Source: an uncultured Sphingobacterium sp. (GTDB taxonomy: Bacteria > Bacteroidota > Bacteroidia > SpSt-205). From it: a DNA stretch of 64,000 nt. This document shows, one piece after another, positions 7,379-30,822 of this stretch (its first letter is position 1; the number at the start of each line of letters is the position of its first letter). The DNA is taken from positions 13,521-77,520 of the forward strand of contig CAZAXD010000005.1 in the NCBI GenBank assembly GCA_964489015.1, given 5' to 3'. The position numbers and the translations under genes are program-made. Below the pieces are notes generated by a model, which was given only the letters and a program-made list of their open reading frames with translations, did not search any database and was not told where the DNA came from.

Positions 7379-7897
7379 ATGCGTCTAGGATGGTACCTCC
7401 TGCTAAGTTCCATCGTCACAGAGTGCGGCGGCTCTAAAAAATCTGCAGCCTCCGAAAAGGCTTCGGTGATGAGCCCAGACCTGTATGTCCGTATCGAGCG
7501 AACGCCCTGCTATGGGCGCTGCCCCATCGATGTCGTCGAAGCCTTCGCCGATGGAAAGGTCCGCTACGAAGGTAAGCGCTTCGTCCCAAGGCTCGGTATT
7601 TACCAGCGCCAGCTTTCTTCTAAAGAGCTAGACACTCTACGACGACTTTTAGTGGAGGCTAAGTTTGGCCAGTACGCTGACGTGTATGACAATCCGGGCA
7701 TCACGGATCTGCCTAGCTTGGAGCTGAAGTATCGCTTGGACGGTCAGGAGAAATCCATCACTTGCCGAACAGGCTGCCCGCCTGAGTTGCCAGACAAGAT
7801 CGAGCGCTTGCGAACCTTTTTAGCCGACCAAGGCTCCTTTCAAATGGAAAAAGGACCTGAAGAGGAGACGATCAGCGACCCTTCATCCGATGATTAG
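7379..7897 (+). CDS. Hypothetical lipoprotein
   Basis: The N-terminal signal peptide has a lipobox-like ...TECGGS. Two Cys-Pro containing motifs (TPCYGRCP, CRTGCPPELP) are present. The acidic C-terminal tail has no recognised catalytic motif. Confidence 0.4.
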   Translation: MRLGWYLLLSSIVTECGGSKKSAASEKASVMSPDLYVRIERTPCYGRCPIDVVEAFADGKVRYEGKRFVPRLGIYQRQLSSKELDTLRRLLVEAKFGQYADVYDNPGITDLPSLELKYRLDGQEKSITCRTGCPPELPDKIERLRTFLADQGSFQMEKGPEEETISDPSSDD

Positions 7898-8205
7898 TGC
7901 CCACCCTTCTGAAAGGAAAAAACGTTGGGGTTTGGGATACGCTTAGAAGGGTCCTTTATCTTTGGGGGTATAGGTGCTGTTCTGTGTCTTGTTTGGTCTG
8001 TGTGGCATGTCGTTCTAGCTTTTGAGCCTCATAGCAAAGCATTATCCTAAGAAGCACTTTGATGGTTAAATAGAGCGCCTTCCGCCAAGCTCTATGTAGC
8101 CTCTCAAGGCGCCCGTGGATAAAGCGCCTCAGCGCCTAATGCCAAATACCTGATGGCAGGCAGCCTAGGTCCTGCCAGGTGGCCTGACTTGCAAAATCTA
8201 CTTTC

Positions 8206-9450
8206 ATGCATATGCGGAAGGTGTGTGTAAACCGTTTTTCTCTGCTTTCACTGGGCTTGCTGATGAGTATTTATGCACAACTGCCGCCAAAGCCGGCGTA
8301 TCCATTTGGCATCAAACAGCCACACTGTGGTCACAGTTTGACAGACCCCCTATTTTATCCTTGGCCGGGACAGTTTGTAGAACTGGTGGTGGACATTAAT
8401 GGCCTACGAGGGTGGCAAATATTTCATCCGGCGCCCTTCGCTAATGTGCTAGTGGGCAAGGCAACGCTACCTGGGGCCTGGATCCGGTTTCATTGGGACC
8501 AGACGCTCGCCGCCTGTAACCCAAACTGCTACGATCCGAATTACAACCCGCGCTATGACATTGACAAGTGGGAGCTCCTAATCATTACCGAAAACTATCA
8601 GGGCGTAGCGGATTTCACGATGCAAAATACGCACACCAACCTCCTAAACTTTGTCCAGCATGCCTGGCAAAACGGGAACGGGGGTAACGGCACGCCGGTC
8701 CTCCTCTGGACGAATTGACCCTGCTTAGATGGGTCGGGCTGCTTCTTTACAGGCTACGGCATTCCAGAAGATAATAGCGGTGGCGCTTCGGGCTGGCGAC
8801 AAATGCTGGATTTTCTGGAGTTTCAGGGGGTGGGCAACCAGTACGGCTGGCAGAGACTTCAGGATTATGTCAACGCCAATAGACCCGCCGGCTGCCCACC
8901 GGTTTACATCATCCCCGGTAATCGCATGATGGCGCGCTTTTATGACGATGTGCAAAATAACCTAGTGCCTGGCATTACTAATGTGCGTCAGATTTTCACG
9001 GATGGTGTTCACCTCAATGACACCGGCGCTTACATGGTGACGATGATTCATTATGCGTGTCTCTTCAACAAAAGTCCTGTGGGTCTCAGCAACGCTATCC
9101 ATCCTAATGTCACCCTAGCACCTGCCTTGGCGGCGTACATTCAAAACATGGTCTGAGATGTCGTCACAAACTACCCGCGAAGCGGCGTTCAGGCCCAGGC
9201 GACTGCCATGAGCGGGCTGGGTCAAGGAGAGAAGGCCCCTTTGCAGGCGCACTATCAGGAGGGAATGCTCTACATCTCGGGAGAAGGCCTGAGGGAAGCA
9301 GAGTTTACGATCTATGCGATTACGGGGGAGTTGGTGCTTCGCAGCCGCTCGACGGTTATCGACGTGCAGGGCCTAAATGCCGGCCTATATATCGTGCAGG
9401 AGGTTCGTTACCCTGCGCCGTGCCCTGTGGCTCAAGCTGCGAGGGGATAG
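8206..9450 (+). pseudogene. Disrupted gene for a secreted SGNH-like hydrolase with a T9SS C-terminal sorting domain
   Basis: Three ORFs (8206-8718, 8803-9156, 9208-9450) are all in frame 1 and separated only by single TGA codons at 8716-8718 and 9154-9156. Translation reads straight through both. The first part has a signal peptide. The middle part has an SGNH block-V-like DGVHLNDTGAYMV. The last part has a T9SS CTD-like FTIYAITGELVLRSRSTVIDVQGLNAGLYIVQ that lacks the usual terminal strand. Confidence 0.45.
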
Positions 9451-20167: not shown

Positions 20168-22372
20168 ATGCTCCGCGTTCTCTGGGCACTTCTGGGGTTA
20201 GTTTGGGCCCAGGGGCAAATAGAGTTGGTAGGACTTATCCGAGCAGCGGAGGAGGCTGCCCCTCATGAGGTTCCAGGCCTCGTTCAGAGAATGCTGCCTC
20301 TTGCTCGAGCGGCTTGTGCTAGCCGCCCTCAGGATACCCTGTGTCTAAAATATGCCCCACAGGTTCTCGACTTGTGGGCTTATGCGCTCTTTTTTGAGGG
20401 AAAGCTCGATTCAGCTCTCCTGCTAAGTGACTCCGCCTACAAGCTCTTAGAGCGGACGGGTTACATCCGAGAAGCCGCTAGCGTTTTAGGCAATGTTGCT
20501 TATTATCACCATCAAAAGGGGCAAATTGTGTCTGCTATCGAGGCCAACTACAAAGTCCTCGAGCTGGCAAAGACCCTGGATGACACGAGGCTACTGTTTT
20601 ATACCTCCAATAACTTAGCTGCTATCTTTCAGGAGATAGGCATAGAAGACAGCGCGACGCGCTTTTACTTGAAGGCGTTGGACTATGGGGAAAAGCTCGG
20701 CGCTAAAGACCTGGTGGCCACTGTACTGAATAACTTAGCGAAGTTTTACTACGATCAGGGTCTATGCCAAAGCGCGCTGAGTTATGCCAAGCGGGCGCTA
20801 GCCCTTCGTATGGAGAGTGGTGACACGGCGGGGGCCGCTATCACCTACGCCAACCTAGGCGCCTATTATCAGGAGCTAGGCCGAGTAGATTCTGCGAAGG
20901 CTGCTTTACAAGCCGCATTATACTGGTCTCGGCGCTCTAATTACAAGAACGCACAAGCGCTGGCCCTGATCAATCTAAGTCGGCTTTATGCGGACGCAGG
21001 CCTTTGGGATTCTGCCCGGACTTGTCTAGATCAGCTTCTCGAGTTTCGAAAAAATGCTTCAGAATCCGAACGATTTCGTGCCTATCTGGCCATGCTAAGC
21101 TTTTACTATCGCCAGTCAGAGGCTAAGCCCACTCTGCGGCGTACACTCTCTCAGCAGGCCCTTCATTGGCGCACGCAAGCGCTGCCCCTCTTGCCACATG
21201 TCAAGGAAGTAGATCTCGTACGGAACTTTTATTCTGCAACCTATCGGATCTTTGCCAACCTTGGCGATACGGTTAGGGCTTTTCGGGATTACATGATCTA
21301 CATTGCGCTTTCCGATAGCCTGCTTTCTAAAGAATCTAGACGTTCTGCCATCGAGTCTCGTTACCAGTATGAATGGCAGCAGCGCGAGCGCAGCTTACTA
21401 GCCCAGCAGATTCAGTTAGAGGAGCGACGAAAGCGCCAGCTTGTCTGGCTGGGGGTTATGGGTATCCTGCTTTTGGTGGTGGGACTAGGGGCTTTCTGGT
21501 TTTATCGGCTTTATCGTCAAATGCAGTTGCAGCGGGATGTTATTGCAGAAAGCAGTGCTCGTCTGCAAGAGGCGCATGCTGTGATCAAGGCACAGCATGA
21601 CGAGCTGCGCCAAAGCTTACGCTATGCGCAGCGCATTCAGCGAGCCCTTCTCCCCGATCCGATGCGCATGCAGCAGCTGCCCTTTACTTGCCGAATATGG
21701 TTTCAGCCGCGGGGCGAGGTAGGAGGGGACTTTTACTGGCTACGTCGGATAGGAGAAGGCGACCGCTACCTTATAGCCATAGGCGATTGTACCGGTCATG
21801 GCGTGCCTGGCGGGTTTATGACCATGATGCTGATAGCACTTCTAGAAACGGCTCTAGAACAAGAAGCCATTGATCTATCGGGGGCAGCGGCTTTTATCAG
21901 TCATCGTTTGCGCGAGCACCTGCATGCCGATAAGCACGAGGGGGTTCAGGATGGGGCTGAGCTCGTTTTAATAGAACTAGATCTACGCTCGGCCAAGATG
22001 CGCTACATCAACGCTGGTGGGAGTATGCGGGGCTGGTGGGTCAGCCCAGCGTGTTTAGAGGAGATTCGTCCTACAGGGCCTGGCCTCGGCTATAATCCAC
22101 TCGGACGCCCTATGGCTTGGACCGAGTGCCCAGTCGACATATCCGCCGGGGGACGTCTATACCTCTTTTCGGATGGCTATCGCGACCAGCTCAGCCCAGC
22201 AGGACGAAAGTTTCCATGGAAACACCTTCAAAGGGATTTGCCTTCGTTCCAGCGGGAACCTATTGTTTCTGTCCAAGACCAGCTAATTACTCGATGGGAG
22301 CAGCACCGGGGCGGTACGGCCCAGGTCGATGATGTAACTGTGTGCCTTTTAGAGCTACCGCCGCTCAGCTAG
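20168..22372 (+). CDS. TPR-repeat sensor protein with transmembrane helix and C-terminal PP2C/SpoIIE-type phosphatase domain
   Basis: The signal peptide is MLRVLWALLGLVWAQGQ. About 350 aa of TPR-like repeats follow. There is one TM helix (LVWLGVMGILLLVVGLGAFWF) and a coiled coil. The SpoIIE/PP2C motifs are GGDFYW...IAIGDCTGHGVPGG and, at the end, DDVTV. Confidence 0.75.
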   Translation: MLRVLWALLGLVWAQGQIELVGLIRAAEEAAPHEVPGLVQRMLPLARAACASRPQDTLCLKYAPQVLDLWAYALFFEGKLDSALLLSDSAYKLLERTGYIREAASVLGNVAYYHHQKGQIVSAIEANYKVLELAKTLDDTRLLFYTSNNLAAIFQEIGIEDSATRFYLKALDYGEKLGAKDLVATVLNNLAKFYYDQGLCQSALSYAKRALALRMESGDTAGAAITYANLGAYYQELGRVDSAKAALQAALYWSRRSNYKNAQALALINLSRLYADAGLWDSARTCLDQLLEFRKNASESERFRAYLAMLSFYYRQSEAKPTLRRTLSQQALHWRTQALPLLPHVKEVDLVRNFYSATYRIFANLGDTVRAFRDYMIYIALSDSLLSKESRRSAIESRYQYEWQQRERSLLAQQIQLEERRKRQLVWLGVMGILLLVVGLGAFWFYRLYRQMQLQRDVIAESSARLQEAHAVIKAQHDELRQSLRYAQRIQRALLPDPMRMQQLPFTCRIWFQPRGEVGGDFYWLRRIGEGDRYLIAIGDCTGHGVPGGFMTMMLIALLETALEQEAIDLSGAAAFISHRLREHLHADKHEGVQDGAELVLIELDLRSAKMRYINAGGSMRGWWVSPACLEEIRPTGPGLGYNPLGRPMAWTECPVDISAGGRLYLFSDGYRDQLSPAGRKFPWKHLQRDLPSFQREPIVSVQDQLITRWEQHRGGTAQVDDVTVCLLELPPLS

Positions 22373-23248
22373 GAGGTAACCTAAGCCCCACCGGTCAAAA
22401 GTTCTCTGGGTCCTATACCCTAAAGTTGAGAGACGCGTTTGAAGCGGCTGTGGGTCGCCATGGTATTCGATATGCCAAAAGCGGACCCGACGCAAAGTAT
22501 CGGCCGGCGTCACGCCTAAAAGCGCCAATTCGCATCCTTCGCAGTCAAGCTTGACATAATCTACCTCCTCTACCTGTAGGTGGTCTAAGAGCGTCTGGAG
22601 GCTATAAACCCGCACTTGGACCTGCTTATCAAACGCAATGAGCTTTTTGGTGAGGGTGGTGGGCTGGAGGCTATTGGCATCCGGCTCTATAGACGAGACG
22701 TGGAACGTAGCTTCTCCATCCTCTGCGCCCAGAGCGGCGGGTAAGAGAGTAATGAGGTTCTCTATCTGCATGCGGCGGATATTGGCCTGAGCGAGTTCGT
22801 AATTAGGCGGATACGGCTCCAGGGCTATCACGTGCTGGGCGCCGCGCAGGGCAAAGTATATGGCCGAGTCCCCATTATAAGCGCCTACGTCTATGACGGT
22901 CTTCCCAGCGAAAGTGTCCCCGTAATCCTTTCGGATGAAAATCTCGTAAAGCGTCATTAGGTCCATCCCCTCGGCTAGTCTTGTATGAAAGAAGCGGCCG
23001 GGAGCAAGCTCCCAAGCTAATGTCTGCGCGTCTAGCACGGTGGGTTGCCAGCCTGCTTTCCGGAGCTGAAGGAGTCCGTAGACGTTAGGAAGCCAGATTC
23101 GAAGGGAAACGGCCTTTCCCCCGAGACGGAGGGGAAGGGTAGATTGGCCAAGCAGGGCACGCCACCAAAGCTTGAAAGGCCGATCCGTGATTTGGCCTAA
23201 GTCAGACCAGGCTCGTAGGAGCTTCAGTAAATAGATATAGCGCATCAT
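22355..23248 (-). CDS. FkbM-family SAM-dependent methyltransferase
   Basis: The SAM-binding glycine motif is VIDVGAYNGDSAIYFALRG. The remainder is FkbM-like. The start is set at MMRYIY (23248). The low-complexity 5' extension of the listed ORF overlaps the recombinase gene and is rejected. Confidence 0.6.
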   Translation of the reverse strand: MMRYIYLLKLLRAWSDLGQITDRPFKLWWRALLGQSTLPLRLGGKAVSLRIWLPNVYGLLQLRKAGWQPTVLDAQTLAWELAPGRFFHTRLAEGMDLMTLYEIFIRKDYGDTFAGKTVIDVGAYNGDSAIYFALRGAQHVIALEPYPPNYELAQANIRRMQIENLITLLPAALGAEDGEATFHVSSIEPDANSLQPTTLTKKLIAFDKQVQVRVYSLQTLLDHLQVEEVDYVKLDCEGCELALLGVTPADTLRRVRFWHIEYHGDPQPLQTRLSTLGYRTQRTFDRWGLGYLLAERR

Positions 23249-23268
23249 AATTTTGAGGGAGAAGCGTT

Positions 23269-24129
23269 TTAGGCACGGGGATGATATTTTTTGTAAGCTT
23301 CTTTTAGCTGAGCGGGAGAGATGACTAGATATTTCTGCGTGGTGGCGAGGCTGCTGTGACCGAGCATGTCTCTTACGGCTTCTACGGGCAGCCCCCGGTC
23401 TAGCAAATGCGTGGCGATGCTGTGCCGCAGGGCATGGGGGTGCGTTCCGAGGCGAGCCCGGATGATGCGATGCACCGCGCGGCTGTAGAGAGGACGCCCC
23501 GCTGGGGTGCATAGGAGGCGGGCATGGCTGGGATGAAGCCGGCTTCGCTCGGCCAGGTAATGCCGCAGAAGCATCTCTAAACGGGGATAAAGGGGCAACA
23601 CGCGCCAACGCTGCCCCTTGCCTAATATGTGTATCTGTCCGAGTTCAAAATGAATCGAACGAACTTCCAGTGCTAAAGCCTCACTGCGTCGGAGCCCTAA
23701 GCCATATAGCAGTTCAATTAAGACGCGGTCACGTAGGTTGACGAGATCCGTGTCCGTTTCTTGGTCTAGAGCTGATAGCCTAGCTTGTAGCGAGGGTTCG
23801 CTCAGTGCTTTAGGTAAAGCTGGCGACACGCTAGGGGTTTCTAGTCGGAAGGGAAGGCCTTCCCTTCCTGAGATGGTCTTCACAAACTGATCAAATCGCC
23901 TTAAGGTCGTGGCTTTACGGGCGCGAGTAGTGGGATTATCGAAGGTGCTGAGCCAGGCCCGAAGCATATTAGGCCGTACTGCTTGCCAGCCTTCTACGCT
24001 TCCCAAAATATCCACTCCATAAACCTCTTGGCAAAAGTGTTGCCATCCCACGAGATCGCGCCGATACGCTTCTATGGTGCGGGGACTTTTGCCCTCTATC
24101 TCGAGGCGCTGTAAAAAGGCGTCCAACAC
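23269..24129 (-). CDS. Tyrosine site-specific recombinase (XerC/XerD-like integrase)
   Basis: The N-terminal SAM-like core-binding domain is present (SPRTIEAYRRDL). The catalytic residues are present: R in GLRRSEAL, HxxR in HALRHS, and the Tyr nucleophile in ATTQKYL. The start is uncertain: GTG at about 24129, or TTG at 24192. Confidence 0.7.
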   Translation of the reverse strand: MLDAFLQRLEIEGKSPRTIEAYRRDLVGWQHFCQEVYGVDILGSVEGWQAVRPNMLRAWLSTFDNPTTRARKATTLRRFDQFVKTISGREGLPFRLETPSVSPALPKALSEPSLQARLSALDQETDTDLVNLRDRVLIELLYGLGLRRSEALALEVRSIHFELGQIHILGKGQRWRVLPLYPRLEMLLRHYLAERSRLHPSHARLLCTPAGRPLYSRAVHRIIRARLGTHPHALRHSIATHLLDRGLPVEAVRDMLGHSSLATTQKYLVISPAQLKEAYKKYHPRA

Positions 24130-24161
24130 CAAACAAAAGTACGTTTCCTCATCTTTGCAGC

Positions 24162-25013
24162 GTGGGGTACGTCGTTGGCTGTATCGTGACAAGTGCTTTG
24201 CTCCTGGTGTGGCTCCGGCTGTGGCGATTGCCTGTCTTTAGCCTGGTCACAGCTAATTACTTGGTGGCGGTGGCGGCCGCCCTCCTCTTGAGGCCCTTGG
24301 CGAAGGAGCCGCTTGAGCGGCTTCCCCTCGTGGGGTGGCTACACCTGGTGGGGCTAGGTGTGTTGTTTATAACGGTCTTTTTCCTAACGGGTCGTGTTGC
24401 GCGAGAGATGGGGGTAGGCATAGCTGGCATGCTCTCAAAGCTCTCTCTCGTTCTCCCGATTGCTTACTCTGTGCTATTCCTGGGAGAGCCGTTTTCTTTT
24501 AGGCAGGGTGTAGGCGTGGGTTTAGCTTTGGGGGCTATTATCCTTGTGCATGTGCCTTACTTACAAAGAGGTGGGCTACTACGGCTCTGGCAGGCGATGC
24601 GGCTCGGCCTTCTTTTATGGGTAGGCAATGGGGTTATAGACATCGCTTTCAAGTCTGGGCAGGTGTACTGGACGGAAATCCCAGCGGAAAATATTCCCCC
24701 CCTGATTATGGGCACGGCTGGCCTGTTAGGACTGGTCATACATGGCTTGCAGGGCGAATGGCGATCTCTAATCAGTGTCCGTTTGTGGATAGGCGCCTTA
24801 GTATTGGGTCTTACGAATATTGCTTCGGTTATTTTTTACGTCATGGGGCTTCAGACCTTACCAGGGGTGATATTCTTCTTGATCCTGAACCTGGGTATTG
24901 TCATGCTGTCTGGTTTTTTGGGTGTGCTTCTTTTTCGAGAGCGCTTGACGTGGGCAGTTGCCAGCGGCTATCTGCTGGGTCTTTTAGCGATAGGTCTTAT
25001 AAGTTGGTCCTAA
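24162..25013 (+). CDS. DMT/EamA-like 10-TM permease
   Basis: Ten hydrophobic helices. EamA-like motifs sit at the domain ends (VLFLGEPFS). 283 aa. Confidence 0.45.
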   Translation: MGYVVGCIVTSALLLVWLRLWRLPVFSLVTANYLVAVAAALLLRPLAKEPLERLPLVGWLHLVGLGVLFITVFFLTGRVAREMGVGIAGMLSKLSLVLPIAYSVLFLGEPFSFRQGVGVGLALGAIILVHVPYLQRGGLLRLWQAMRLGLLLWVGNGVIDIAFKSGQVYWTEIPAENIPPLIMGTAGLLGLVIHGLQGEWRSLISVRLWIGALVLGLTNIASVIFYVMGLQTLPGVIFFLILNLGIVMLSGFLGVLLFRERLTWAVASGYLLGLLAIGLISWS

Positions 25014-25762
25014 AATGAAGAAGGCCCCCTTTTGGGGGCCGACCGGCTGGACTGACAAGATCGCAACTGATGTGTGAAGAGCAAGAGCCTTCTAAGGGCG
25101 CTTTCGCTCACATCCAGTTTTTGCGTAGAAGATCTAAACTTCTCTATGAATACGAGGGGATCGGGAAACAAACTATTTACTAGCTCAGCTTCTTGCTCTA
25201 ACTCGTCGAAATGAGGGGAGCGCTCCGCCGTGTATTTGATAAGGTACCGGTGCACAAAATGGTTACGCCCCTCGCCAGGAGCTTGGGGCAAAGGATGAGC
25301 GTACAACTCCTGCGGTAAAGATACTTTGAGCCTGCATAACGCAAACAGCCAAGCGGGAATAAGGGGTAGTTCAGAAAACGGAAGATACCGCGCCCACACC
25401 CGCCCGCAGCTGGGTGGAGCAATGACCCCGCGCCCCTCCCATTGAAAATCAACCCCCTCCAACACCTTGCGGGGAAGCTCTGTCAGCTCAGCACGAAAAT
25501 AGTAGTGCGCGCCTCGAGACGTGCGGTAATAGGCACACTCCGTGTTTTGAAGCAGTTGATGCAGGGAGGTATGCAGCAGGGTGCTGCCATCCACATCGAC
25601 AACGAGAAGGCCCAGGCCCGTAAGAATGCCAACATCTGCACCTTCAGGCCAGGTGGCGGGATTATACTTATACGCCTGCCAGCCCGCTGCTAGCGGACGC
25701 TTGCCCTGGGCAGGGTATACCCTGTACCCGTCTCGGACCAGGCGCTCAACTGTTACCGTCAT
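25010..25762 (-). CDS. Bifunctional DNA primase/polymerase (Prim-Pol) N-terminal domain protein
   Basis: It resembles archaeo-eukaryotic primase-like Prim-Pol domains found on plasmids, phages and integrative elements: YPAQGKRPLAAGWQAY, the acidic LLVVDVDG, and the downstream aromatic/His block. Confidence 0.5.
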   Translation of the reverse strand: MTVTVERLVRDGYRVYPAQGKRPLAAGWQAYKYNPATWPEGADVGILTGLGLLVVDVDGSTLLHTSLHQLLQNTECAYYRTSRGAHYYFRAELTELPRKVLEGVDFQWEGRGVIAPPSCGRVWARYLPFSELPLIPAWLFALCRLKVSLPQELYAHPLPQAPGEGRNHFVHRYLIKYTAERSPHFDELEQEAELVNSLFPDPLVFIEKFRSSTQKLDVSESALRRLLLFTHQLRSCQSSRSAPKRGPSSF

Positions 25763-25934
25763 GATTGTGTATCTTGACTACGCGTTTTAGATATTCCGCA
25801 CGATGCACAAACGTCTTGTGCCCTATGTCAATATAAGGAACCTTGTACCCTTTTAAGTGCCTGCGTACAGTAGCCGTACAAATTCCCAGCTCCTTCGCAA
25901 GCCGGGGAAGGTGGGTATACTCGCCCAGGTCCAT
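25746..25934 (-). CDS. Excisionase-family helix-turn-helix DNA-binding protein
   Basis: The 62-aa protein has the HTH_17/Xis-like pattern LPRLAKELGICTATVRRHLKGYKVPYIDIGHKTFVHRAEYLKRV. It overlaps the Prim-Pol gene start by about 17 nt. Confidence 0.5.
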   Translation of the reverse strand: MDLGEYTHLPRLAKELGICTATVRRHLKGYKVPYIDIGHKTFVHRAEYLKRVVKIHNHDGNS

Positions 25935-26297
25935 ATGGTAAATTTAGCACTACAACCATTACAATTAGCATGCCATAGCCAAGCACTCTGCCCGCCTCAC
26001 CACCCTTAGCACCGCTCCCCAAGGCCCCCAGCCTCCCCATAAAACAGAACAGGCCGCCAAAAGCGTTAGAACGCCAAAAAGAGCCGTTTTACCCCTATCA
26101 CTCGTGTGATCCCGCCCAGGCCCGAAAACCCCGCTCAAATCGGCTCTGAATACCGCTGGCCGCTTCCCTATCCGCTGCCCCGCGCCCGCTGCTAGGCATC
26201 TGCATCGGTGGTAAGCGCGCGCGGATATCTGCTCAAATCTGCGGCTTCGTGCACAAGATCTGTCACACAAAGCACTCATAAGTCCCTGTCCGCCAAT

Positions 26298-26540
26298 GGG
26301 TTCCGTCTCTGATACACATCAAGTGTCGCGTTCGCTAACCCTCTTATATCTTTTTTTTATAGTGTATCTATTTGGAAAGAGATACACTTGATGTGTATCA
26401 GGCTCGGAAGTCGCTGTCCTACAGCCACTTATGAAACGTATTTGTAACAGATAGTGAGCACGAAGAAGGGTCAAAGAGCACTTCAAGTGTAACACCCCTC
26501 TGCTTCTTGGTTTGAGGGTGTATCTAAATAGATACACTTA
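26298..26540. promoter_or_regulatory. Array of inverted heptamer sites GTGTATC/GATACAC (iteron- or operator-like)
   Basis: GTGTATCtatttggaaagaGATACACttgatGTGTATC lies at about 26359-26396. A second palindrome GTGTATCtaaataGATACAC lies at about 26518-26537. An outer 18-bp inverted repeat pairs CTGATACACATCAAGTGT at about 26300 with ACACTTGATGTGTATCAG at about 26385. All lie in a 1 kb non-coding region next to the Xis/Prim-Pol genes. Confidence 0.6.
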
Positions 26541-26897
26541 AACCCACTCCAAAAAGTTTTTTGCAACATCATGGCATTTGCACTTTATGGCGAGCGAGTA
26601 GAGGGCGTGCATGAGCTTGGGAAAGTTATATTTTGTGGCATGCTAAGTATGGCGAGGGGTTCTAGGGTGCCCCGCGTGGTACAGAATTTGATGAGTATTC
26701 CAGGGAAACACAAACTTCAATGCCTATGAAAACGCAAGTAGAACGGTATGAAGCCGTTCGGAGCCGTGTGGGGACGAGCCTACTGCTAGGCGTGAACACC
26801 TTTGCGAGGCCCTCTCGTCCCTGCCCGCGGGCGAGCGAGTGGAGGCACTGAGGGAAATGGCTTTGCTCGGCTACGCATCACACGCTTCACAACGTTC

Positions 26898-26924
26898 AGC
26901 AGCTTCCTCGTGCTGAGCAGCTCA
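26898..26924. promoter_or_regulatory. Perfect 27-bp palindrome about 50 bp upstream of the S8 peptidase start
   Basis: The sequence is cctcgtgctgagc-a-gctcagcacgagg (13-bp arms). It is followed by aaaaagagg rather than a T-run, so it is not a canonical terminator on either strand. A candidate operator or RNA stem. Confidence 0.5.
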
Positions 26925-26976
26925 GCACGAGGAAAAAGAGGGTCCCCTTGGTTGCATGAAAAGCTTACCTTAGGCT

Positions 26977-29900
26977 ATGCGCTGGTGGATCGTGGGATGG
27001 ATAGGCGCTATGTGGGCTCAGAGCTTCTGTGTAGCGGTGGCCCCTCAGCAAAAAGAACTGGCGCGGGTCCTGCGTCAAAATCGACTCGCTGCGCCGGTCC
27101 GTCAGGGACCCTTATGGAAAGGTCTTTCGCGAGTAACTCCATTAGTAGCTGATACGAGTTTGACAGACCTGAGCCACTGGTTTGTGCTCTCGTTTCAGGG
27201 AGAGGACAGCGCTGCGGTGGTGCAGCGGTTACTACAAAGCGGATACTTCTGGGTGGTGGAGCCCAATCACCGCCGCCGATTGTGTGCAGACCTGTATGGG
27301 TGGCATCATGCAATCATGGGTACGGCGCAAGCCTGGACCCGCACGATGGGACACGCGAACGTTCCGATCGCTATCATCGACACCGGGCTAGATACTGCTT
27401 TAGGGGCCTTTACAGGACAGTACTGGGTCAATGCCCCAGAGGATCTTAACGGCAATGGTCGCTTGGATTCTGCAGACCTCAATGGGCTCGATGACGACGG
27501 TAACGGCTGGATCGATGATGTGATCGGGTATGACTTTACGGACCAGGCTCGGGGTATTGCTGCGGGAGATGCTTGGACACCCGACCCGATCCCTGTAGAT
27601 GAGAATGGGCATGGCACCGCTGTAACGAGCTTGATCGCTGCGCGATCGGATAGAGGGCCGATAAGCGGCTTAGCGCCAGGTTGTCGGATTCTGGTGATAC
27701 GGGCTTTTAGTGCAGACGGCTACGGGGAGGATGATGATATCGCGCGAGGTGTACTTTATGCAGTAGAGCGGGGAGTTCGGGTCATCAACTGCAGCTTTGG
27801 CGATGAAGCCCCTTCGCAAATGATGCACGCTGTGATCCGGTATGCGGCTGCGCGTGGCGTGGTGGTGGTAGCCTCTTCTGGCAATGGCAGTGGAGGACGT
27901 CCCCACTTTCCCTCAAGCTTTCCCGAGGTAATTAGTGTGGGTGCCGCAAGCTATGACCCTGAGAGTGGTCGGCCCTTTTTGTGGCCCTTCTCGGGGTATA
28001 GCCGGGTAGACTGGATAGCACCTGGTGACCGAATTCCCGTTCTCCTACCAGGGGCCCAGGTGGCTAGCCTAAGTGGGACGAGCCTCAGTGCGGCGCTCAC
28101 AAGTGCGGCGATAGCTCTGTTACTAAGCCGCTTTCCCGGGCTAACCCCGGAAGCCGTCCGCGCTACACTAGCTGCTTCTGCTCAAGACTTAGGCGGGCCG
28201 GGCTGGGATGTGTATACAGGCGCAGGCCTGCTTAGGCTTTTGCCCGGCTTAGACCAGCCACACGAAGGGCTCATTCAGTGGCTCGAACCGGCGCCTCATA
28301 CAACGGCGCCGCTCGCGCCTGTGGCGCTTCGACTCCGGATTTATCATAGCCTCCTGGTAGGTTGGGAAGTGGCCCAAGCTAGAAGCTTGCAGGGGCCCTG
28401 GCTCGTGATCGCTAGAGGTCATCGCCCCGCTTGGGATACAAGCTTTACATGGCAACCGTCTAGCGAGGGTCAGTGGTATTTGCGCCTCTCTGCTATGCTT
28501 CGGAATGGTCAAGCGCAAGCGAGCATCCTTCCCTTAGAGGCTGTGCAAGGAGGTTTGCGCTTTGAGCAGGCTGAGATAGGCCCTGCATGGCGGGAGGGTT
28601 TCCAGGGCCGTGTGGCTAACTACCTACTCAATGCGTCCGCTCCAGTCTGTGTGGAGAGCGCCTCTGACCGATTATGTGCCGATAAAATCGATACCATTGG
28701 CGCGATCTTTTTAGGCATCAGGCCTTCCACGGCCTGGACCTTTCAAGCGCTTGGGGGCTTGGATACACCCCAGGTCATGCGCAGCACGCCGCCCCCCGCC
28801 TATGAAGCGCTAGCCTTTGATGCCTACGCCATTCGAAATATATCGGCGCCTGCTGGTTTTTACTGGCCTTATCCGCTCCCAGACTGGGGTGGGGATGGGC
28901 TGCCCGATTACGCTGCTGCGGTTTATGACGAGCAGGGGTATTTTCAGCATGTCGTTTATATAGAACGACGAGGGGCGGTGTATGAAGCGTACGACAGTCT
29001 GACGGCGAGGCCTATGCTTATCCGGGACGTGAGAGACTGGGATGCCGATGGTCAGCCAGACTTGCTAGGCGTGTGGGTAGACAGCTTCTTTGTGTGTAGC
29101 GGTAGTCCGCCCAAAGAGATCGTATGGCGAGGGGCCGGTCGGGCTGCCCGCTTAGACGCCAACCAGACCATCTGGCGACGCACGGAAAACGGGCACTACG
29201 AGCGCGTCTCTCAGCAGGGACAGGTCCTGGCGCGCTTGCTGGATACCACTACCTGGCAAGGCTCTACCACGATCCCTCGGCTGCTGCTGCTGCCTGCTGC
29301 TTCAGAGACTCTCTGGGTTTTTGGCAATTATTCAGGTTGGATTTTTGCCTATCGGGGGTCCTCGCTGGTAGAAGCTTATCCTACTAGCCTATGGGGGGTA
29401 GGCTCCTATCTCGAGGCTGTCGAGCTAAACGGCGATAATCAGAGCGAATTAGTTTATCTGGGGCAGCGGCCTGGGGCCAAACTGTGGGAGCTAGGCATCT
29501 TAGGCGGGCGACCTTGGCAGCACATAGCTCAAAGCGTATTTTGGTACGAGGGTGATTATGCGCCTAGACTCTTTCTGCGCGCCGATACGGTCCTGCTGTG
29601 GTTGCCTCCGTACGTGTACGTTGGCCAGCTTAGTATGAGTGGTATCCGCTGGTGGGCTTATGGACCGGCGGCTTGGGGCGCCTTTGGGCCACTAAGAGAA
29701 GGTTGGCTTCTTGGTCTCGACTCAGTCCCTTGTGTGGTAGAATATACCCCGCCTGTCCTCCTAGCGCCGGCCTGGATTCGGGTAGGAGCGTTAGGCGTGA
29801 ATGCCGTAGACCTTAGTTGGTCTCCAGTCGGCAGTGCTACAGGCTATGAGCTCTGGCGTATAACTGGTAATCAAGCCACTTTGGTTTATGCAGGTGCTCA

Positions 29901-30822
29901 GACGGATTACGTGGACACAGGGCTGGTAGCGGGGCGATATGCTTATGCCGTTCGGGCCATTGGCGGGGCCTTTGGTGAGGTCCGCGTGGTGAACTTAGGC
30001 CCCCGTCCCTGCCTAAGCGTGATAGACCTAAAGCCCCACCTTGGTCAGGTGATCCTCCAGGGTAATAGCAGTTGGTGGCAAAACGGTGAGTCTGCTTTTA
30101 CCTTGGAACCAGGGAACCTAAAACCTCTTTTGGCGCTGGGCAGTGGCCCTACGTGGATTTTACAATTTGCAGAGCCTTTGCAGGCAGGGGCTTACCGGCT
30201 AGTCATCGATACGCTTCTCCAAGATGAAGACGCCCGCTATTTAGACCCTGCATGTGATACGGTACTTCTCATTGTGCCGGCCTTACCTGGCGATACCTGT
30301 CCAAAAGCCATTACATGGGAGGCTGTTGACGAGCGCAGCATAGCAGTGACTTTTTCCCAGGCGCCGGGTCCTAGAGCAGAGGAGCTTACCTCATATACGA
30401 TACTCCCGGCCGGCCAAGTGGAAGCTATCACACGAATCACGCCTACCCGTTTACAGCTTCAGTTGTCCGTTTCTCCGAGTCGGGTGCCGTTTAGTTTAGT
30501 CTGGGCTTGGGACTCTACGTGTAAGGGTACGATAGCTTTTTCGCCCTTGGCCGAGAAGCTAGTAGAGTGGGCGCTCTTTCCCAATCCTATCCGTCGGCAG
30601 CATCGAGCCGTATTTTTTGGGGGGCTGCCGCCCGGGACCACTGTACAAATCTTGTCAGCAGATGGTGCACTCTGCACTCGTCTGAGAAAAGCTAAAGGGG
30701 AAACTTTATTGAGCTGGGATTTGCATACGCTACAGGGCGAGAGGCTGGCCCCTGGCGTTTACGTCGTAATCGCTGAGTACGCCGGCCAGCGCTTCTATGA
30801 TAAGCTGGTGGTCTTAGAGTAG
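26977..30822 (+). CDS. Large secreted subtilisin-like S8 serine peptidase with Fn3-like region and T9SS C-terminal sorting domain
   Basis: The signal peptide is MRWWIVGWIGAMWAQS. The S8 catalytic triad is in canonical order: D in IAIIDTGLD, H in NGHGTAVTSLIAA, S in SGTSLSAALTSAAIALL. An Fn3-like segment is present (VDLSWSPVGSATGYELWR). The C-terminus is a T9SS CTD (TTVQILSADGALCTRL...LAPGVYVVIAEYAGQRFYDKLVVLE). 1281 aa. Confidence 0.8.
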   Translation: MRWWIVGWIGAMWAQSFCVAVAPQQKELARVLRQNRLAAPVRQGPLWKGLSRVTPLVADTSLTDLSHWFVLSFQGEDSAAVVQRLLQSGYFWVVEPNHRRRLCADLYGWHHAIMGTAQAWTRTMGHANVPIAIIDTGLDTALGAFTGQYWVNAPEDLNGNGRLDSADLNGLDDDGNGWIDDVIGYDFTDQARGIAAGDAWTPDPIPVDENGHGTAVTSLIAARSDRGPISGLAPGCRILVIRAFSADGYGEDDDIARGVLYAVERGVRVINCSFGDEAPSQMMHAVIRYAAARGVVVVASSGNGSGGRPHFPSSFPEVISVGAASYDPESGRPFLWPFSGYSRVDWIAPGDRIPVLLPGAQVASLSGTSLSAALTSAAIALLLSRFPGLTPEAVRATLAASAQDLGGPGWDVYTGAGLLRLLPGLDQPHEGLIQWLEPAPHTTAPLAPVALRLRIYHSLLVGWEVAQARSLQGPWLVIARGHRPAWDTSFTWQPSSEGQWYLRLSAMLRNGQAQASILPLEAVQGGLRFEQAEIGPAWREGFQGRVANYLLNASAPVCVESASDRLCADKIDTIGAIFLGIRPSTAWTFQALGGLDTPQVMRSTPPPAYEALAFDAYAIRNISAPAGFYWPYPLPDWGGDGLPDYAAAVYDEQGYFQHVVYIERRGAVYEAYDSLTARPMLIRDVRDWDADGQPDLLGVWVDSFFVCSGSPPKEIVWRGAGRAARLDANQTIWRRTENGHYERVSQQGQVLARLLDTTTWQGSTTIPRLLLLPAASETLWVFGNYSGWIFAYRGSSLVEAYPTSLWGVGSYLEAVELNGDNQSELVYLGQRPGAKLWELGILGGRPWQHIAQSVFWYEGDYAPRLFLRADTVLLWLPPYVYVGQLSMSGIRWWAYGPAAWGAFGPLREGWLLGLDSVPCVVEYTPPVLLAPAWIRVGALGVNAVDLSWSPVGSATGYELWRITGNQATLVYAGAQTDYVDTGLVAGRYAYAVRAIGGAFGEVRVVNLGPRPCLSVIDLKPHLGQVILQGNSSWWQNGESAFTLEPGNLKPLLALGSGPTWILQFAEPLQAGAYRLVIDTLLQDEDARYLDPACDTVLLIVPALPGDTCPKAITWEAVDERSIAVTFSQAPGPRAEELTSYTILPAGQVEAITRITPTRLQLQLSVSPSRVPFSLVWAWDSTCKGTIAFSPLAEKLVEWALFPNPIRRQHRAVFFGGLPPGTTVQILSADGALCTRLRKAKGETLLSWDLHTLQGERLAPGVYVVIAEYAGQRFYDKLVVLE

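What the first reader, a model, noticed from the sequence alone, without database searches (positions are those of the whole stretch)
26298..26540. Cluster of inverted GTGTATC/GATACAC heptamers (iteron/operator-like) in a 1 kb non-coding gap beside Xis and Prim-Pol genes
Within about 250 bp, the heptamer GTGTATC and its complement GATACAC occur at least six times in alternating orientation: GTGTATC-N12-GATACAC-N5-GTGTATC, a second GTGTATC-N6-GATACAC, and an outer 18-bp inverted repeat. Such arrays are typical of replication origins (iterons bound by Rep or primase proteins) or multi-operator sites for dimeric HTH regulators. They sit immediately upstream of an excisionase-like HTH gene and a Prim-Pol gene, and within 2.5 kb of a tyrosine recombinase. 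This may be the replication or regulatory core of an integrated or degraded mobile element.
Basis: seen in the sequence. Interest (0 to 1): 0.6.

Follow-up and report, generated by a model that had tools for sequence, protein, structure and literature searches.

The report
Leftover phage replication-control DNA sites
The repeated GTGTATC words are real protein-docking sites left over from the replication-control region of a phage, of which this genome keeps about 1.4 kb with a broken replication gene, so the array is a fairly ordinary viral relic rather than a new kind of system.

Summary
Six exact GTGTATC/GATACAC heptamers lie in 26311-26537, and this is the densest 7-mer cluster in the 64 kb window. 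They sit in and beside the only long inverted repeat of the window (82-nt arms).

The neighbouring 250-aa Prim-Pol is a truncated copy. Its only close relatives (63% identity over residues 5-205; 666 and 679 aa) are Prim-Pol + SF3-helicase proteins on phage contigs. Those contigs also carry terminase, portal, ERF and a lysin, and a small HTH gene overlaps the primase start, as here.

Those phages have a 0.9-kb noncoding gap with:
- the same 20-bp palindrome GTGTATC-N6-GATACAC;
- a second shared palindrome, CACTT-N-AAGTG;
- A/T tracts;
- a long dyad-symmetric element, in the same order as in the window.

Extra copies of the palindrome lie just upstream of phage gene starts, some in pairs 22-23 bp apart.

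Best reading: this is a stranded array of binding sites for a phage DNA-binding protein. The palindrome is operator-type. The dyad element is origin-like, as in pRN1 and phage BIP-1. It is probably inert here, because the helicase and DNA-binding part of the replicase are gone.

There is no support for an att site, a role for the Xer-like recombinase, an RNA gene or a MITE. It is a new member of a known kind, of modest interest.

The parts
26518..26537 (.). Canonical 20-bp palindrome GTGTATC-TAAATA-GATACAC (heptamers E and F), operator-type site
   Evidence: It is a perfect palindrome. The same site, with one mismatch, is at L006 7904-7923. That form recurs 8 times in L006 at up to 3 mismatches, against 0.29 expected.
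26519..26562 (.). Block conserved at DNA level with phage L006/L007: the palindrome plus CCCAC..AAAAAGTTTTTT A/T tract
   Evidence: blastn gives 84% identity over 44 bp to L006 7922-7879 and L007 176-133.
26311..26317 (-). Heptamer A (GATACAC on + strand), outer end of the left arm
26362..26368 (+). Heptamer B, directly after the T8/AT-rich spacer
26381..26387 (-). Heptamer C. It lies N12 from B and N5 from D.
26393..26399 (+). Heptamer D. Together with C it forms GATACAC-TTGAT-GTGTATC.
26245..26465 (.). Long dyad-symmetric element: 82-nt arms (26245-26326 and 26384-26465, 73% complementary) around a 57-nt centre that holds heptamers B and C
   Evidence: - The arms were found.
- It is the only inverted repeat of at least 30 nt in the 64 kb window.
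- Fold z-scores are -7.4 and -6.2 (RNA, two strands) and -7.1 (DNA).
- The arm mismatches show no wobble bias.
- L006 7940-8280 has an analogous element, z -8.0.
26344..26361 (.). AT-rich spacer with a T8 run between heptamers A and B, in the lowest-GC stretch of the neighbourhood
   Evidence: The sequence was read. GC is 0.41 for 26300-26599, against about 0.55 around it.
26479..26489 (.). Second palindrome type, CACTTCAAGTG. One-mismatch copies lie at 26315-26325 and 26385-26395, overlapping heptamers A, C and D.
   Evidence: All three matches in the 64 kb window lie inside the array. L006 has 4 matches against 0.44 expected, three of them in 7960-8169.
25767..25773 (+). Seventh exact heptamer, 5 nt upstream of the Prim-Pol start codon and inside the 3' end of the HTH gene
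25746..25934 (-). 62-aa small HTH protein gene, first gene of the HTH-primase operon
   Evidence: - It matches HTH_17 only weakly (E 0.028).
- Syntenic counterparts in L005 and L006 match HTH_17 better: 28.9 bits (above the cut-off of 27) and 24.1 bits (below it).
- Identity to those counterparts is 23-24%, with 12 invariant residues.
- The same overlap with the primase start is seen in the relatives.
25010..25762 (-). Truncated Prim-Pol gene (250 aa). The homologous part is 25154-25762.
   Evidence: - It matches PF09250 with E 1.2e-12.
- It is 63% identical over residues 5-205 to the 666-aa P0002.
- The alignment is lost after about residues 203-225, and the SF3 helicase is absent.

Best explanation
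**What it is.** The array is the stranded cis-acting control region of a phage replication module. It is a set of binding sites for a sequence-specific DNA-binding protein of an uncharacterised phage family.

**What survives.** About 1.4 kb of that phage remains here (25154-26562):
- the site array;
- a small HTH gene;
- the first ~205-225 codons of a Prim-Pol/SF3-helicase gene.

**How it works in intact relatives.** The heptamer is the half-site of a 20-bp palindrome, (G/C)TGTATC-N6-GATACA(C/G).
- Copies of the palindrome lie just upstream of early and replication-operon genes, some in pairs two helical turns apart. This is the signature of a dimeric regulator that represses or times those operons. 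I assign this operator role to the canonical site at 26518-26537.
- Further heptamers and a second palindrome (CACTT-N-AAGTG) sit at the apex and in the arms of a 230-310-bp AT-rich dyad-symmetric element inside a 0.9-kb noncoding gap. I read heptamers A-D at 26311-26399 as the core of an origin-like assembly site, comparable to the large stem-loop origins proposed for Prim-Pol + SF3 + winged-helix replicases.

**Present state.** The replicase has lost its helicase and C-terminal part, so the array is most likely an inert relic. At most it could titrate or respond to proteins of a related phage that infects the cell.

**Shown and inferred.**
- Shown: the motif statistics, the homology and colinearity with the phage regions, and the truncation.
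- Inferred: protein binding, the split between operator and origin roles, the identity of the binding protein, and present-day inactivity.

**My split for the primary role of the heptamers.** Operator about 0.45, origin about 0.35, and both roles at once is quite possible.
For: **1. The array is non-random.**

**2. Phage origin.**
- The Prim-Pol has only two close relatives among 1.84 billion representative proteins: P0002 and, in the 90%-identity collection, P0151.
- Both are 666-679-aa proteins with Prim-Pol, PriCT_1 and DUF5906 domains. Walker A (GGRGKS), Walker B (VVVLED) and SF3 motif C (VVTSN) are readable in the sequence.
- They lie on contigs with terminase, portal, ERF, a RecE-like exonuclease, a GH108 lysin and VRR-NUC, and each is preceded by a 63-65-aa HTH_17 gene.

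**3. Truncation.** Homology covers only 25154-25762, and no other phage gene is present in the 64 kb window.

**4. Homologous cis-region.**
- The 44-bp block 26519-26562 is 84% identical to L006 7922-7879.
- GTGTATC occurs 6 times in L006 against 0.71 expected.
- The N6 palindrome occurs 8 times against 0.29 expected: at 317 and 340 (23 bp apart), 7904, 8090 and 8112 (22 bp apart), and 9203, plus two three-mismatch matches inside genes (7010, 10553) that are probably chance.
- The site at 9203-9222 lies 25 bp upstream of the ATG of the 163-aa gene that heads the HTH-primase operon. L005 5-24 has the positional counterpart in otherwise diverged DNA.

**5. Second shared motif and colinear order.**

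**6. Dyad element conserved in structure but not sequence.** z is -7.1 in the window and -8.0 in L006, yet blastn does not align the arms.

**7. Origin-like context.** GC reaches its local minimum at the array. L006 cumulative GC skew is lowest at about 8800-9200.

**8. Independent phage lineage.** L009/L010/L011/L042 place four or five N6 palindromes of the same sequence in the divergent region between the packaging genes and the small early genes.

**9. Published precedent.** In pRN1, orf56 (a small repressor) and orf904 (Prim-Pol + SF3 + winged helix) need a 100-nt stem-loop whose structure, not sequence, is conserved. A similar stem-loop lies next to the replicase gene of Bordetella phage BIP-1 (PMC4234260).
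Against: - No binding protein is identified. No repressor-like family was found among the phage neighbours.
- The window HTH is only 23-24% identical to the phage HTH proteins, and its putative recognition helix differs although the motif is identical.
- The winged-helix C-terminus of the full-length replicase rests on a poor model. Overall pLDDT is 39; only residues 600-666 reach 60-73.
- In the window only one of the six heptamers' pairings has the canonical N6 spacing. The others are N44, N12 and N5, which a rigid dimer does not explain.
- The array is 377-600 bp from the HTH start, far for an operator.
- No promoter is mapped. There is no Bacteroidota-type -7 box in the gap, and the sigma-70 scan is at background level.
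- Only two independent examples of the dyad element exist: the window and L006/L007.
- In pRN1 and BIP-1 the stem-loop is 3' of the replicase gene; here it is 5'.
- Six perfect heptamers and intact HTH and Prim-Pol reading frames could mean the fragment is still used.
Confidence: 0.55

Rival explanations
1. The array is purely a replication origin. The heptamers would be recognition sites for the phage Prim-Pol/SF3-helicase, through a C-terminal winged helix. The protein would assemble as a double hexamer on the long dyad element next to the T8/AT-rich spacer, as at P4 ori/crr, SV40 or papillomavirus origins, or the pRN1/BIP-1 stem-loop. The copies near promoters would be secondary, autoregulatory sites.
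For: - The gap is 0.9-1.0 kb of noncoding DNA in a compact phage genome, next to replication and recombination genes.
- GC is at its local minimum, and A/T tracts are present.
- The perfect heptamers occur in both orientations with variable spacing.
- The dyad symmetry is conserved without sequence conservation.
- The L006 skew minimum is nearby.
- The replicase domain architecture matches the pRN1/BIP-1 class.
- Secondary structure resembling a winged helix is predicted at residues 600-666.
Against: - In L006 the strongest signal is a fixed-spacing palindrome spread over three loci 9 kb apart, mostly just upstream of gene starts. That fits a transcription factor better.
- A second phage lineage uses the same palindrome in a divergent early/late promoter region.
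- GC skew is confounded by the switch in gene orientation.
- The winged-helix model has low confidence.
- The window copy has no helicase, so the region cannot work as an origin on its own.
Confidence: 0.3
2. The array is a live host regulatory region. The palindromes would be operators for a host-encoded or domesticated regulator, for example the retained 62-aa HTH. They would control the HTH/Prim-Pol operon or the downstream S8 peptidase gene. Unrelated phages would share the motif because they exploit the same host factor.
For: - The same 20-bp palindrome occurs in two phage lineages with no detectable shared protein.
- All six heptamers are perfect, and the HTH and Prim-Pol frames are intact, with the catalytic D56, D58, H86 and D105 kept.
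- One heptamer lies 5 nt before the Prim-Pol ATG.
Against: - Outside the array the motif is not enriched in the 64 kb of host DNA, and the other copies are mostly inside genes.
- It does not match the published Bacteroidetes LexA-like motifs GGA-N5-TCC and CTAA-N5-TTAG (PMC8565304).
- The match to the second phage lineage came from a search of 2.9 million viral contigs, so it may be coincidence.
- The S8 gene starts 440 bp beyond the last site.
Confidence: 0.08
3. The region is a structured noncoding RNA, or a long antisense or terminator hairpin, transcribed from 26245-26465.
For: The predicted hairpins are very stable on both strands (z -7.4 and -6.2).
Against: - There are no Rfam matches at gathering score in the window or the phage loci. 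Only microRNA-hairpin noise appears at E 0.1-0.5.
- The 22 arm mismatches show no bias to G-U-compatible changes (3 GT, 3 AC, 16 other).
- Both strands fold about equally well, as expected for a DNA palindrome.
- No promoter or terminator signal rises above background.
Confidence: 0.04
4. The region is a recombination site. The heptamers would be arm-type sites of an attP/attL bound by Xis and the nearby tyrosine recombinase, or the terminal inverted repeats of a MITE or IS remnant.
For: A small HTH_17-like protein lies next to the array. A tyrosine recombinase gene lies 1.7 kb away. A long inverted repeat is present.
Against: - The window has no tRNA or tmRNA gene.
- No convincing flanking direct repeats were found.
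- The recombinase is Xer-like, is separated from the fragment by an EamA gene, and is absent from the phage relatives.
- The homologous region lies in the interior of the phage contigs, between replication and recombination genes.
- There is no second copy of the inverted repeat in the 64 kb window.
Confidence: 0.03

Closest known systems
pRN1 replicon (orf56 repressor + orf904 Prim-Pol/SF3 helicase/winged-helix replicase, with a ~100-nt stem-loop as putative origin) and the stem-loop next to the replicase gene of Bordetella phage BIP-1 (PMC4234260)
   Same: - A small DNA-binding protein gene is co-oriented with, and overlaps, a Prim-Pol + SF3-helicase gene.
- A large imperfect stem-loop lies near the replicase gene, and its structure rather than its sequence is conserved between relatives.
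   Different: - Here the dyad element is 5' of the operon, not 3' of the replicase gene.
- It is two to three times longer (230-310 nt).
- It carries explicit repeated heptamers and a second palindrome.
- The small protein is HTH_17-like, whereas I recall ORF56 as CopG-like (from memory, not checked here).
- The window copy of the replicase is truncated.
Satellite phage P4 ori and crr, bound by the alpha primase-helicase
   Same: - Short repeated sites lie at more than one locus.
- They are bound by the C-terminal winged-helix domain of a multifunctional primase + SF3-type helicase, as summarised in PMC4234260.
- From memory, not checked here: the P4 sites occur in both orientations.
   Different: - The P4 alpha primase is Toprim type, not Prim-Pol.
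- From memory, not checked here: the P4 site is the octamer TGTTCACC.
- No sequence similarity was detected: NCBIfam found nothing for P0002.
- Binding here is only inferred.
Lambdoid operator arrays (OR/OL) and other phage repressor operators
   Same: - The sites are 17-20-bp palindromes with fixed half-site spacing.
- They occur as several copies, in pairs about two helical turns apart, immediately upstream of early genes and in divergent intergenic regions.
   Different: - No CI/Cro-like repressor gene was recognised.
- Four of the six window heptamers do not keep the fixed spacing.
- The sites are embedded in a long palindrome.
Origins served by SF3 helicases in eukaryotic viruses (SV40 site II GAGGC pentamers, papillomavirus E1 binding site) and the HSV oriS/oriL palindromes
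   Same: Short sites in inverted orientation lie around or next to an AT-rich stretch, inside a larger palindrome that overlaps early promoters. The initiator also autoregulates transcription. This comparison rests on established knowledge and was not tested here.
   Different: The hosts and proteins are unrelated. This is an analogy of design only.
PICI/SaPI-type modules (alpA-like HTH, pri-rep, iteron origin)
   Same: An HTH_17/AlpA-like small gene directly precedes a primase-helicase gene, with a repeat-rich origin nearby.
   Different: - The relatives here are full phages with terminase, portal and lysin genes, not satellites.
- Neither an integrase nor att sites could be linked to the fragment.
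- The origin in those islands is usually 3' of rep and built of direct iterons.

Membership tests
Iteron-type replication origin (P4 ori/crr, SaPI/PICI ori, iteron plasmids) | Cluster of at least 4 copies of one short sequence | tested here: met
   There are six exact heptamers in 227 bp, the top 7-mer cluster in the 64 kb window.
Iteron-type replication origin (P4 ori/crr, SaPI/PICI ori, iteron plasmids) | Mostly direct repeats with regular helical phasing | tested here: not met
   Orientation alternates, and the spacings are 44, 12, 5, 118 and 6 nt.
Iteron-type replication origin (P4 ori/crr, SaPI/PICI ori, iteron plasmids) | Adjacent AT-rich unwinding stretch | tested here: met
   A T8/AT-rich spacer lies at 26344-26361. 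GC is 0.41 for 26300-26599, against about 0.55 around it.
Iteron-type replication origin (P4 ori/crr, SaPI/PICI ori, iteron plasmids) | Cognate initiator with a DNA-binding domain encoded alongside | tested here: not met
   The window Prim-Pol stops aligning at about residues 203-225 of 666-679, so the helicase and C-terminus are absent. Both are present in phage relatives.
Iteron-type replication origin (P4 ori/crr, SaPI/PICI ori, iteron plasmids) | Supports replication when the initiator is supplied | not testable with these tools
   This needs a plasmid replication assay.
Large stem-loop origin of Prim-Pol + SF3 + winged-helix replicases (pRN1, BIP-1; PMC4234260) | Replicase with Prim-Pol, SF3 helicase and a C-terminal winged helix | tested here: inconclusive
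   - The relatives have Prim-Pol, PriCT_1 and DUF5906 domains with Walker A, Walker B and motif C.
- The winged helix rests only on a low-confidence model.
- The window copy lacks everything after the Prim-Pol and partial PriCT_1 domains.
Large stem-loop origin of Prim-Pol + SF3 + winged-helix replicases (pRN1, BIP-1; PMC4234260) | Stem-loop of at least 100 nt whose structure, not sequence, is conserved among relatives | tested here: met
   z is -7.1 in the window and -8.0 in L006, and blastn does not align the arms. Only two independent lineages are available.
Large stem-loop origin of Prim-Pol + SF3 + winged-helix replicases (pRN1, BIP-1; PMC4234260) | Located just 3' of the replicase gene | tested here: not met
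   The element lies 5' of the HTH-primase operon: 0.4 kb upstream in the window and 1.7-2 kb upstream in L006.
Phage operator array for a dimeric repressor | Palindromic site with fixed half-site spacing, present in several copies | tested here: inconclusive
   - The window has one perfect N6 site plus two sites with three mismatches.
- The feature is clearly met in L006 (8 sites against 0.29 expected) and in L010 (6 against 0.52).
Phage operator array for a dimeric repressor | Sites at or next to promoters of the regulated genes | tested here: inconclusive
   - L006 9203-9222 and L005 5-24 lie just upstream of the first gene of the primase operon (25 bp before its ATG in L006).
- L006 317-359 abuts a gene start.
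- The window heptamer at 25767 lies 5 nt before the Prim-Pol ATG.
- No promoter is mapped.
Phage operator array for a dimeric repressor | Cognate repressor gene identified | tested here: not met
   The L006 126-aa and 163-aa proteins and the L010 79-aa protein match no repressor family. The recognition helix of the HTH_17 protein is not conserved although the motif is identical.
Excisionase (HTH_17 / TIGR01764) for the 62-aa protein | Scores above the family threshold | tested here: not met
   The window protein scores 15.1 bits against a cut-off of 27. The L005 counterpart scores 28.9 bits and passes; the L006 counterpart scores 24.1 bits and does not.
Excisionase (HTH_17 / TIGR01764) for the 62-aa protein | Partnered with an integrase of the same element, next to an att site | tested here: not met
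   - No integrase is seen on the held parts of the phage contigs (4-16 kb each).
- The Xer-like gene is separated from the fragment by an EamA gene.
- No tRNA gene or flanking direct repeats were found.
Known RNA family (Rfam 15) | Match at gathering score | tested here: not met
   There are no matches in the window or in L005, L006 or L010. Only sub-threshold microRNA-hairpin noise appears.
MITE / IS remnant | Multiple copies in the genome | tested here: not met
   No other copy exists in the 64 kb window. The complete genome was not available.

The most novel reading that the evidence does not exclude
The 230-310-bp dyad-symmetric element with recognition heptamers at its apex could be the bacterial-phage counterpart of the pRN1/BIP-1 'large stem-loop' origin. 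It would then give that origin class its first explicit sequence motif.

In that case the host's copy may not be junk. It keeps all six sites perfect, together with an intact HTH gene and a catalytically intact Prim-Pol domain. It could be retained as a decoy or mini-satellite that captures the replicase or regulator of related phages during infection, either interfering with them or being amplified by them.
Probability: 0.1. Interest if true: 0.6.

Novelty: new member of a known kind. Interest (0 to 1): 0.3.

Why it matters
- It flags a small prophage remnant in an otherwise unsampled genome. Nearly all of the proteins looked up are singletons at 90% identity.
- It defines the cis-motifs of an uncharacterised phage family that carries a Prim-Pol/SF3-helicase replicase: (G/C)TGTATC-N6-GATACA(C/G) and CACTT-N-AAGTG, set in a long dyad element.
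- If the dyad element is the origin, it extends to bacterial phages the idea that Prim-Pol + SF3 + winged-helix replicases assemble on large stem-loops, and it supplies candidate recognition sites for biochemistry.
- For the host genome itself the practical consequence is small. It corrects the annotation: the 62-aa HTH gene rather than the 70-aa ORF called in the public gene call, a truncated primase, and no evidence for an integrative element built around the Xer-like gene.

Tried and rejected
- **RNA genes.** Rfam at gathering score on the window and three phage loci, Rfam at E-value threshold on the gap, and a tRNA/tmRNA scan all found nothing.
- **Promoters and terminators.** The sigma-70 and terminator scan of the gap was at background level. 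A scan for the Bacteroidota -7 box TAnnTTTG found none in the window gap and two upstream of the L006 HTH gene.
- **Related genomes.** Searches of GTDB species representatives with the S8 peptidase and with P0002 found no relatives, so host synteny and element boundaries could not be tested.
- **Other sequence collections.**
  - IMG/VR searches with P0002 and with the L006 terminase found nothing.
  - The JGI metagenome scan returned only distant helicase fragments.
  - Deposited phages gave only two matches of about 24% identity to the helicase region, and no DNA match to the gap.
- **HTH homologues.** The word-based homologue search for the 62-aa HTH found no candidates.
- **att repeats.** The direct-repeat search turned up only 11-13-mers consistent with chance.
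- **MITE.** There is no second copy.
- **LexA-like SOS box.** The published Bacteroidetes motifs differ.
- **Broad IMG/VR scan for GTGTATC-N6-GATACAC.** Most hits were single chance sites or repeats inside a large ORF of a giant-virus-like family (L021/L048/L065/L107/L111). Only L009-L011/L042 and L036 looked like real site arrays.
- **Shared binder.** blastp between the two phage lineages that carry the palindrome found no shared protein.
- **Structure of P0002.** The AlphaFold model was too poor (pLDDT 39) for a fold search. PDB sequence search and NCBIfam gave nothing.
- **Sample provenance.** A literature search for the SRR accessions found no paper.
Full report
**Observation**

Exact GTGTATC/GATACAC heptamers lie at these positions:
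- 26311-17 (-, site A)
- 26362-68 (+, B)
- 26381-87 (-, C)
- 26393-99 (+, D)
- 26518-24 (+, E)
- 26531-37 (-, F)

The outer 18-bp inverted repeat is perfect (26309-26326 / 26384-26401).

The motif occurs 14 times in the window against 3.56 expected, and no shuffle out of 100 reaches 14. Six copies in 250 bp is the highest count for any 7-mer anywhere in the 64 kb, the runner-up being 4. Only 2 of 2000 dinucleotide shuffles of the gap reach 6 for any 7-mer.

Three things were missed:
- A seventh copy lies at 25767-73, 5 nt before the Prim-Pol ATG.
- The 18-bp repeat is only the tip of 82-nt arms (26245-26326 / 26384-26465, 73% complementary). This is the only inverted repeat of at least 30 nt in the window.
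- A second palindrome, CACTT-N-AAGTG, has three matches in the window, all inside the array.

**Genes around it**

- *25746-25934 (-)* encodes a 62-aa protein with only sub-threshold HTH matches (HTH_17, E 0.028). The gene call on record for the public assembly lists an overlapping 70-aa ORF instead.
- *25010-25762 (-)* is a 250-aa Prim-Pol (PF09250, E 1.2e-12).
- *24162-25013 (+)* is an EamA transporter.
- *23269-24192 (-)* is a tyrosine recombinase with Xer architecture. Its best NCBIfam match is XerC, below the cut-off.
- *26977-30822 (+)* is an S8 peptidase with a T9SS sorting tail.

The window has no tRNA or tmRNA gene and no Rfam match.

**Where the fragment comes from**

An exhaustive HMMER search of 1.84 billion representative proteins found one close relative of the Prim-Pol. 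This is P0002, 666 aa and 63% identical over residues 5-205; every other hit has E of about 1e-11 or weaker. P0002 and its 77%-identical relative P0151 (679 aa) carry Prim-Pol, PriCT_1 and DUF5906 domains. Walker A (GGRGKS), Walker B (VVVLED) and SF3 motif C (VVTSN) are readable in the sequence.

Their contigs (L005, L006, L007) are phage genomes or prophages. A 63-65-aa HTH_17 gene overlaps the primase start. Then come a small ORF, the large terminase, a GH108 lysin and VRR-NUC. On the other side are a portal gene, ERF and a RecE-like exonuclease.

The window protein aligns only to about residues 203-225 and then ends. Its catalytic residues are kept. tblastx finds phage homology only at 25154-25762, weakly in the HTH gene, and in the noncoding block at 26499-26562. 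It finds none anywhere else in the 64 kb.

So about 1.4 kb of a phage replication module survives here. It ends against the 3' end of the EamA gene. The accession numbers suggest the phage contigs come from the same sequencing series as a run that contains this genome. That is an inference.

**The homologous cis-region in the phages**

L006 has a 0.9-kb noncoding gap (7800-8680) between two co-oriented leftward genes, and then a 186-bp divergent intergenic region before the rightward operon (163-aa gene, HTH, primase).

- Window 26519-26562 is 84% identical to L006 7922-7879. This block is the palindrome plus an A5-6/T6 tract.
- GTGTATC occurs 6 times in L006 against 0.71 expected.
- The form with the strongest signal is the 20-bp palindrome (G/C)TGTATC-N6-GATACA(C/G), with 8 matches at up to 3 mismatches against 0.29 expected and 0 of 200 shuffles.
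- The matches lie at 317 and 340 (23 bp apart, abutting a gene start), 7904, 8090 and 8112 (22 bp apart), and 9203. The last is 25 bp before the ATG of the first gene of the primase operon. Two further three-mismatch matches (7010, 10553) lie inside genes and are probably chance.
- L005 has the positional counterpart of the 9203 site (5-24, one mismatch) in otherwise diverged DNA.
- CACTT-N-AAGTG occurs 4 times in L006 against 0.44 expected, three of them in 7960-8169.
- The order of sites is colinear. The window, read on the minus strand, runs E/F, then CACTTGAAGTG, then D/C/B, then the A/T spacer, then A. L006 runs 7904, then 7960 and 8055, then 8090 and 8112, then 8159.
- L006 7940-8280 is also strongly dyad-symmetric (z -8.0), like window 26235-26475 (z -7.1 as DNA). 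blastn does not align the arms.

Motifs, order and symmetry are therefore conserved while the spacers have diverged. That is the pattern expected of functional cis-elements.

**RNA or DNA?**

Both strands fold about equally well. The 22 arm mismatches show no excess of G-U-compatible changes (3 GT, 3 AC, 16 other). No RNA family matches. I therefore read the region as a DNA-level element.

**A second phage lineage**

A search of IMG/VR for the palindrome found the contigs L009, L010 and L011. The broader N6 search added their relative L042. This lineage has an SU10-type portal. Four or five N6 palindromes lie in the divergent region between the packaging genes and a run of small early genes.

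No protein is detectably shared with the L006 family. The match may be coincidence, given the size of the database, or it may reflect a short binder that has diverged beyond detection. Either way it shows how such a palindrome is used in a phage. Most other IMG/VR hits are single chance sites or repeats inside genes.

**Mechanism**

*For an operator role:*
- The half-site spacing is fixed.
- Some sites come in pairs two helical turns apart.
- Sites lie just upstream of gene starts, at three loci spread over 9 kb.

*For an origin role:*
- The gap is unusually long and noncoding, and lies next to replication and recombination genes.
- GC is at its local minimum (0.41), with A/T tracts.
- The window heptamers are perfect but variably spaced and occur in both orientations.
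- They sit at the apex of a long dyad element.
- L006 cumulative GC skew is lowest nearby, although this is confounded by gene orientation.

*Published precedent.* Prim-Pol + SF3 + winged-helix replicases (pRN1 ORF904, co-transcribed with the small repressor ORF56, and Bordetella phage BIP-1) are proposed to assemble on a large stem-loop whose structure, not sequence, is conserved (PMC4234260).

*Candidate binders.* The C-terminal 65 residues of P0002 are predicted as helix-strand-helix-helix-hairpin, which resembles a winged helix, but the model is poor. The small HTH is a weaker candidate. The window protein is only 23-24% identical to the phage versions and differs in the putative recognition helix, while the motif is identical.

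*My reading.* The array is a binding-site set with a double use. The E/F palindrome is operator-type, and A-D are the core of an origin-like dyad element. Well-studied initiators use their sites in this double way (SV40 T antigen, iteron-plasmid Rep proteins); that comparison rests on established knowledge, not on a test here. For the primary role I put operator at about 0.45 and origin at about 0.35. In this genome the replicase lacks its helicase and C-terminus, so the array is most likely a relic.

**Alternatives rejected or downgraded**

- *att site or Xis-integrase system.* There is no tRNA gene and there are no flanking repeats. The recombinase is Xer-like, lies beyond a transporter gene, and has no counterpart in the phages.
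- *MITE.* The element is single-copy in the window.
- *Bacteroidetes LexA-like box.* The published motifs are different.
- *Host regulon.* The motif is not enriched elsewhere in the window, and the other copies are mostly inside genes.

**Limits**

- No close host relatives or further phage relatives could be retrieved. The insertion boundaries, the age of the fragment and co-variation between motif and protein remain untested.
- Only two independent examples of the dyad element exist.

**Verdict**

The feature is real and statistically solid. The Xis/integrase/att and 'iteron' details do not. It is a new member of a known kind and of modest interest.

Noticed in passing
window 26904-26934: A perfect 31-bp palindrome, TTCCTCGTGCTGAGC-A-GCTCAGCACGAGGAA, lies 43 bp upstream of the S8 peptidase start codon. 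No T-run follows it on either strand. It could be an operator or an atypical terminator, and it is unrelated to the heptamer motif.
   Followed up: no
window 25935-26300: The roughly 370 bp between the HTH start and the array are GC-rich (0.55-0.59) and strongly C-skewed on the + strand (GC skew about -0.29). No family-supported ORF and no similarity to the phage relatives were found. In L006 two extra genes (126 aa and 163 aa) occupy the corresponding interval.
   Followed up: partly
window 25746-25934 versus 25828-26040: The gene call on record for the public assembly lists a 70-aa ORF in another frame (25828-26040) and not the 62-aa HTH gene. Synteny with the phage HTH_17 genes shows the 62-aa frame is the real one, so this is a likely misannotation.
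   Followed up: yes
L006 8180-8270: The phage noncoding gap also contains three copies of GCACACATCCGA, two direct and one inverted. Inverted partners lie at 7970-7996. This third repeat type has no counterpart in the window.
   Followed up: no
L009, L010 (9858-10760), L011, L042: An unrelated phage lineage with an SU10-type portal uses the same 20-bp palindrome GTGTATC-N6-GATACAC four or five times in its divergent early/late intergenic region. No protein is detectably shared with the L006 family.
   Followed up: partly
L036 3428-6058: Another viral contig carries five copies of a longer palindrome, TGTATCGCATGCGATACA, several of them just upstream of ORF starts. It shares only the outer half-sites with the window motif, so it is probably an independent operator system.
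   Followed up: no
window 26586-26605, 26648-26667, 26827-26846: Three copies of a 20-mer related to TATGGCGAGCGAGTAGAGGG (75% identity) lie between the array and the S8 peptidase gene. Their function is unknown.
   Followed up: no
window 22355-23608 and 23269-24192: The 417-aa FkbM-methyltransferase ORF overlaps the Xer-like gene by 340 bp. Its domain starts only at residue 237, so the ORF is probably over-extended. The Xer-like ORF also overlaps the divergent EamA start by 30 bp.
   Followed up: no
whole window: The host genome is very poorly sampled.
- Four of the six proteins looked up are singletons at 90% identity, and the other two exact sequences are not in the collection.
- The S8 peptidase has no relative among the GTDB species representatives.
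- TonB-dependent receptor-like and T9SS features suggest a Bacteroidota-like lineage, but the taxonomy was not established.
   Followed up: partly
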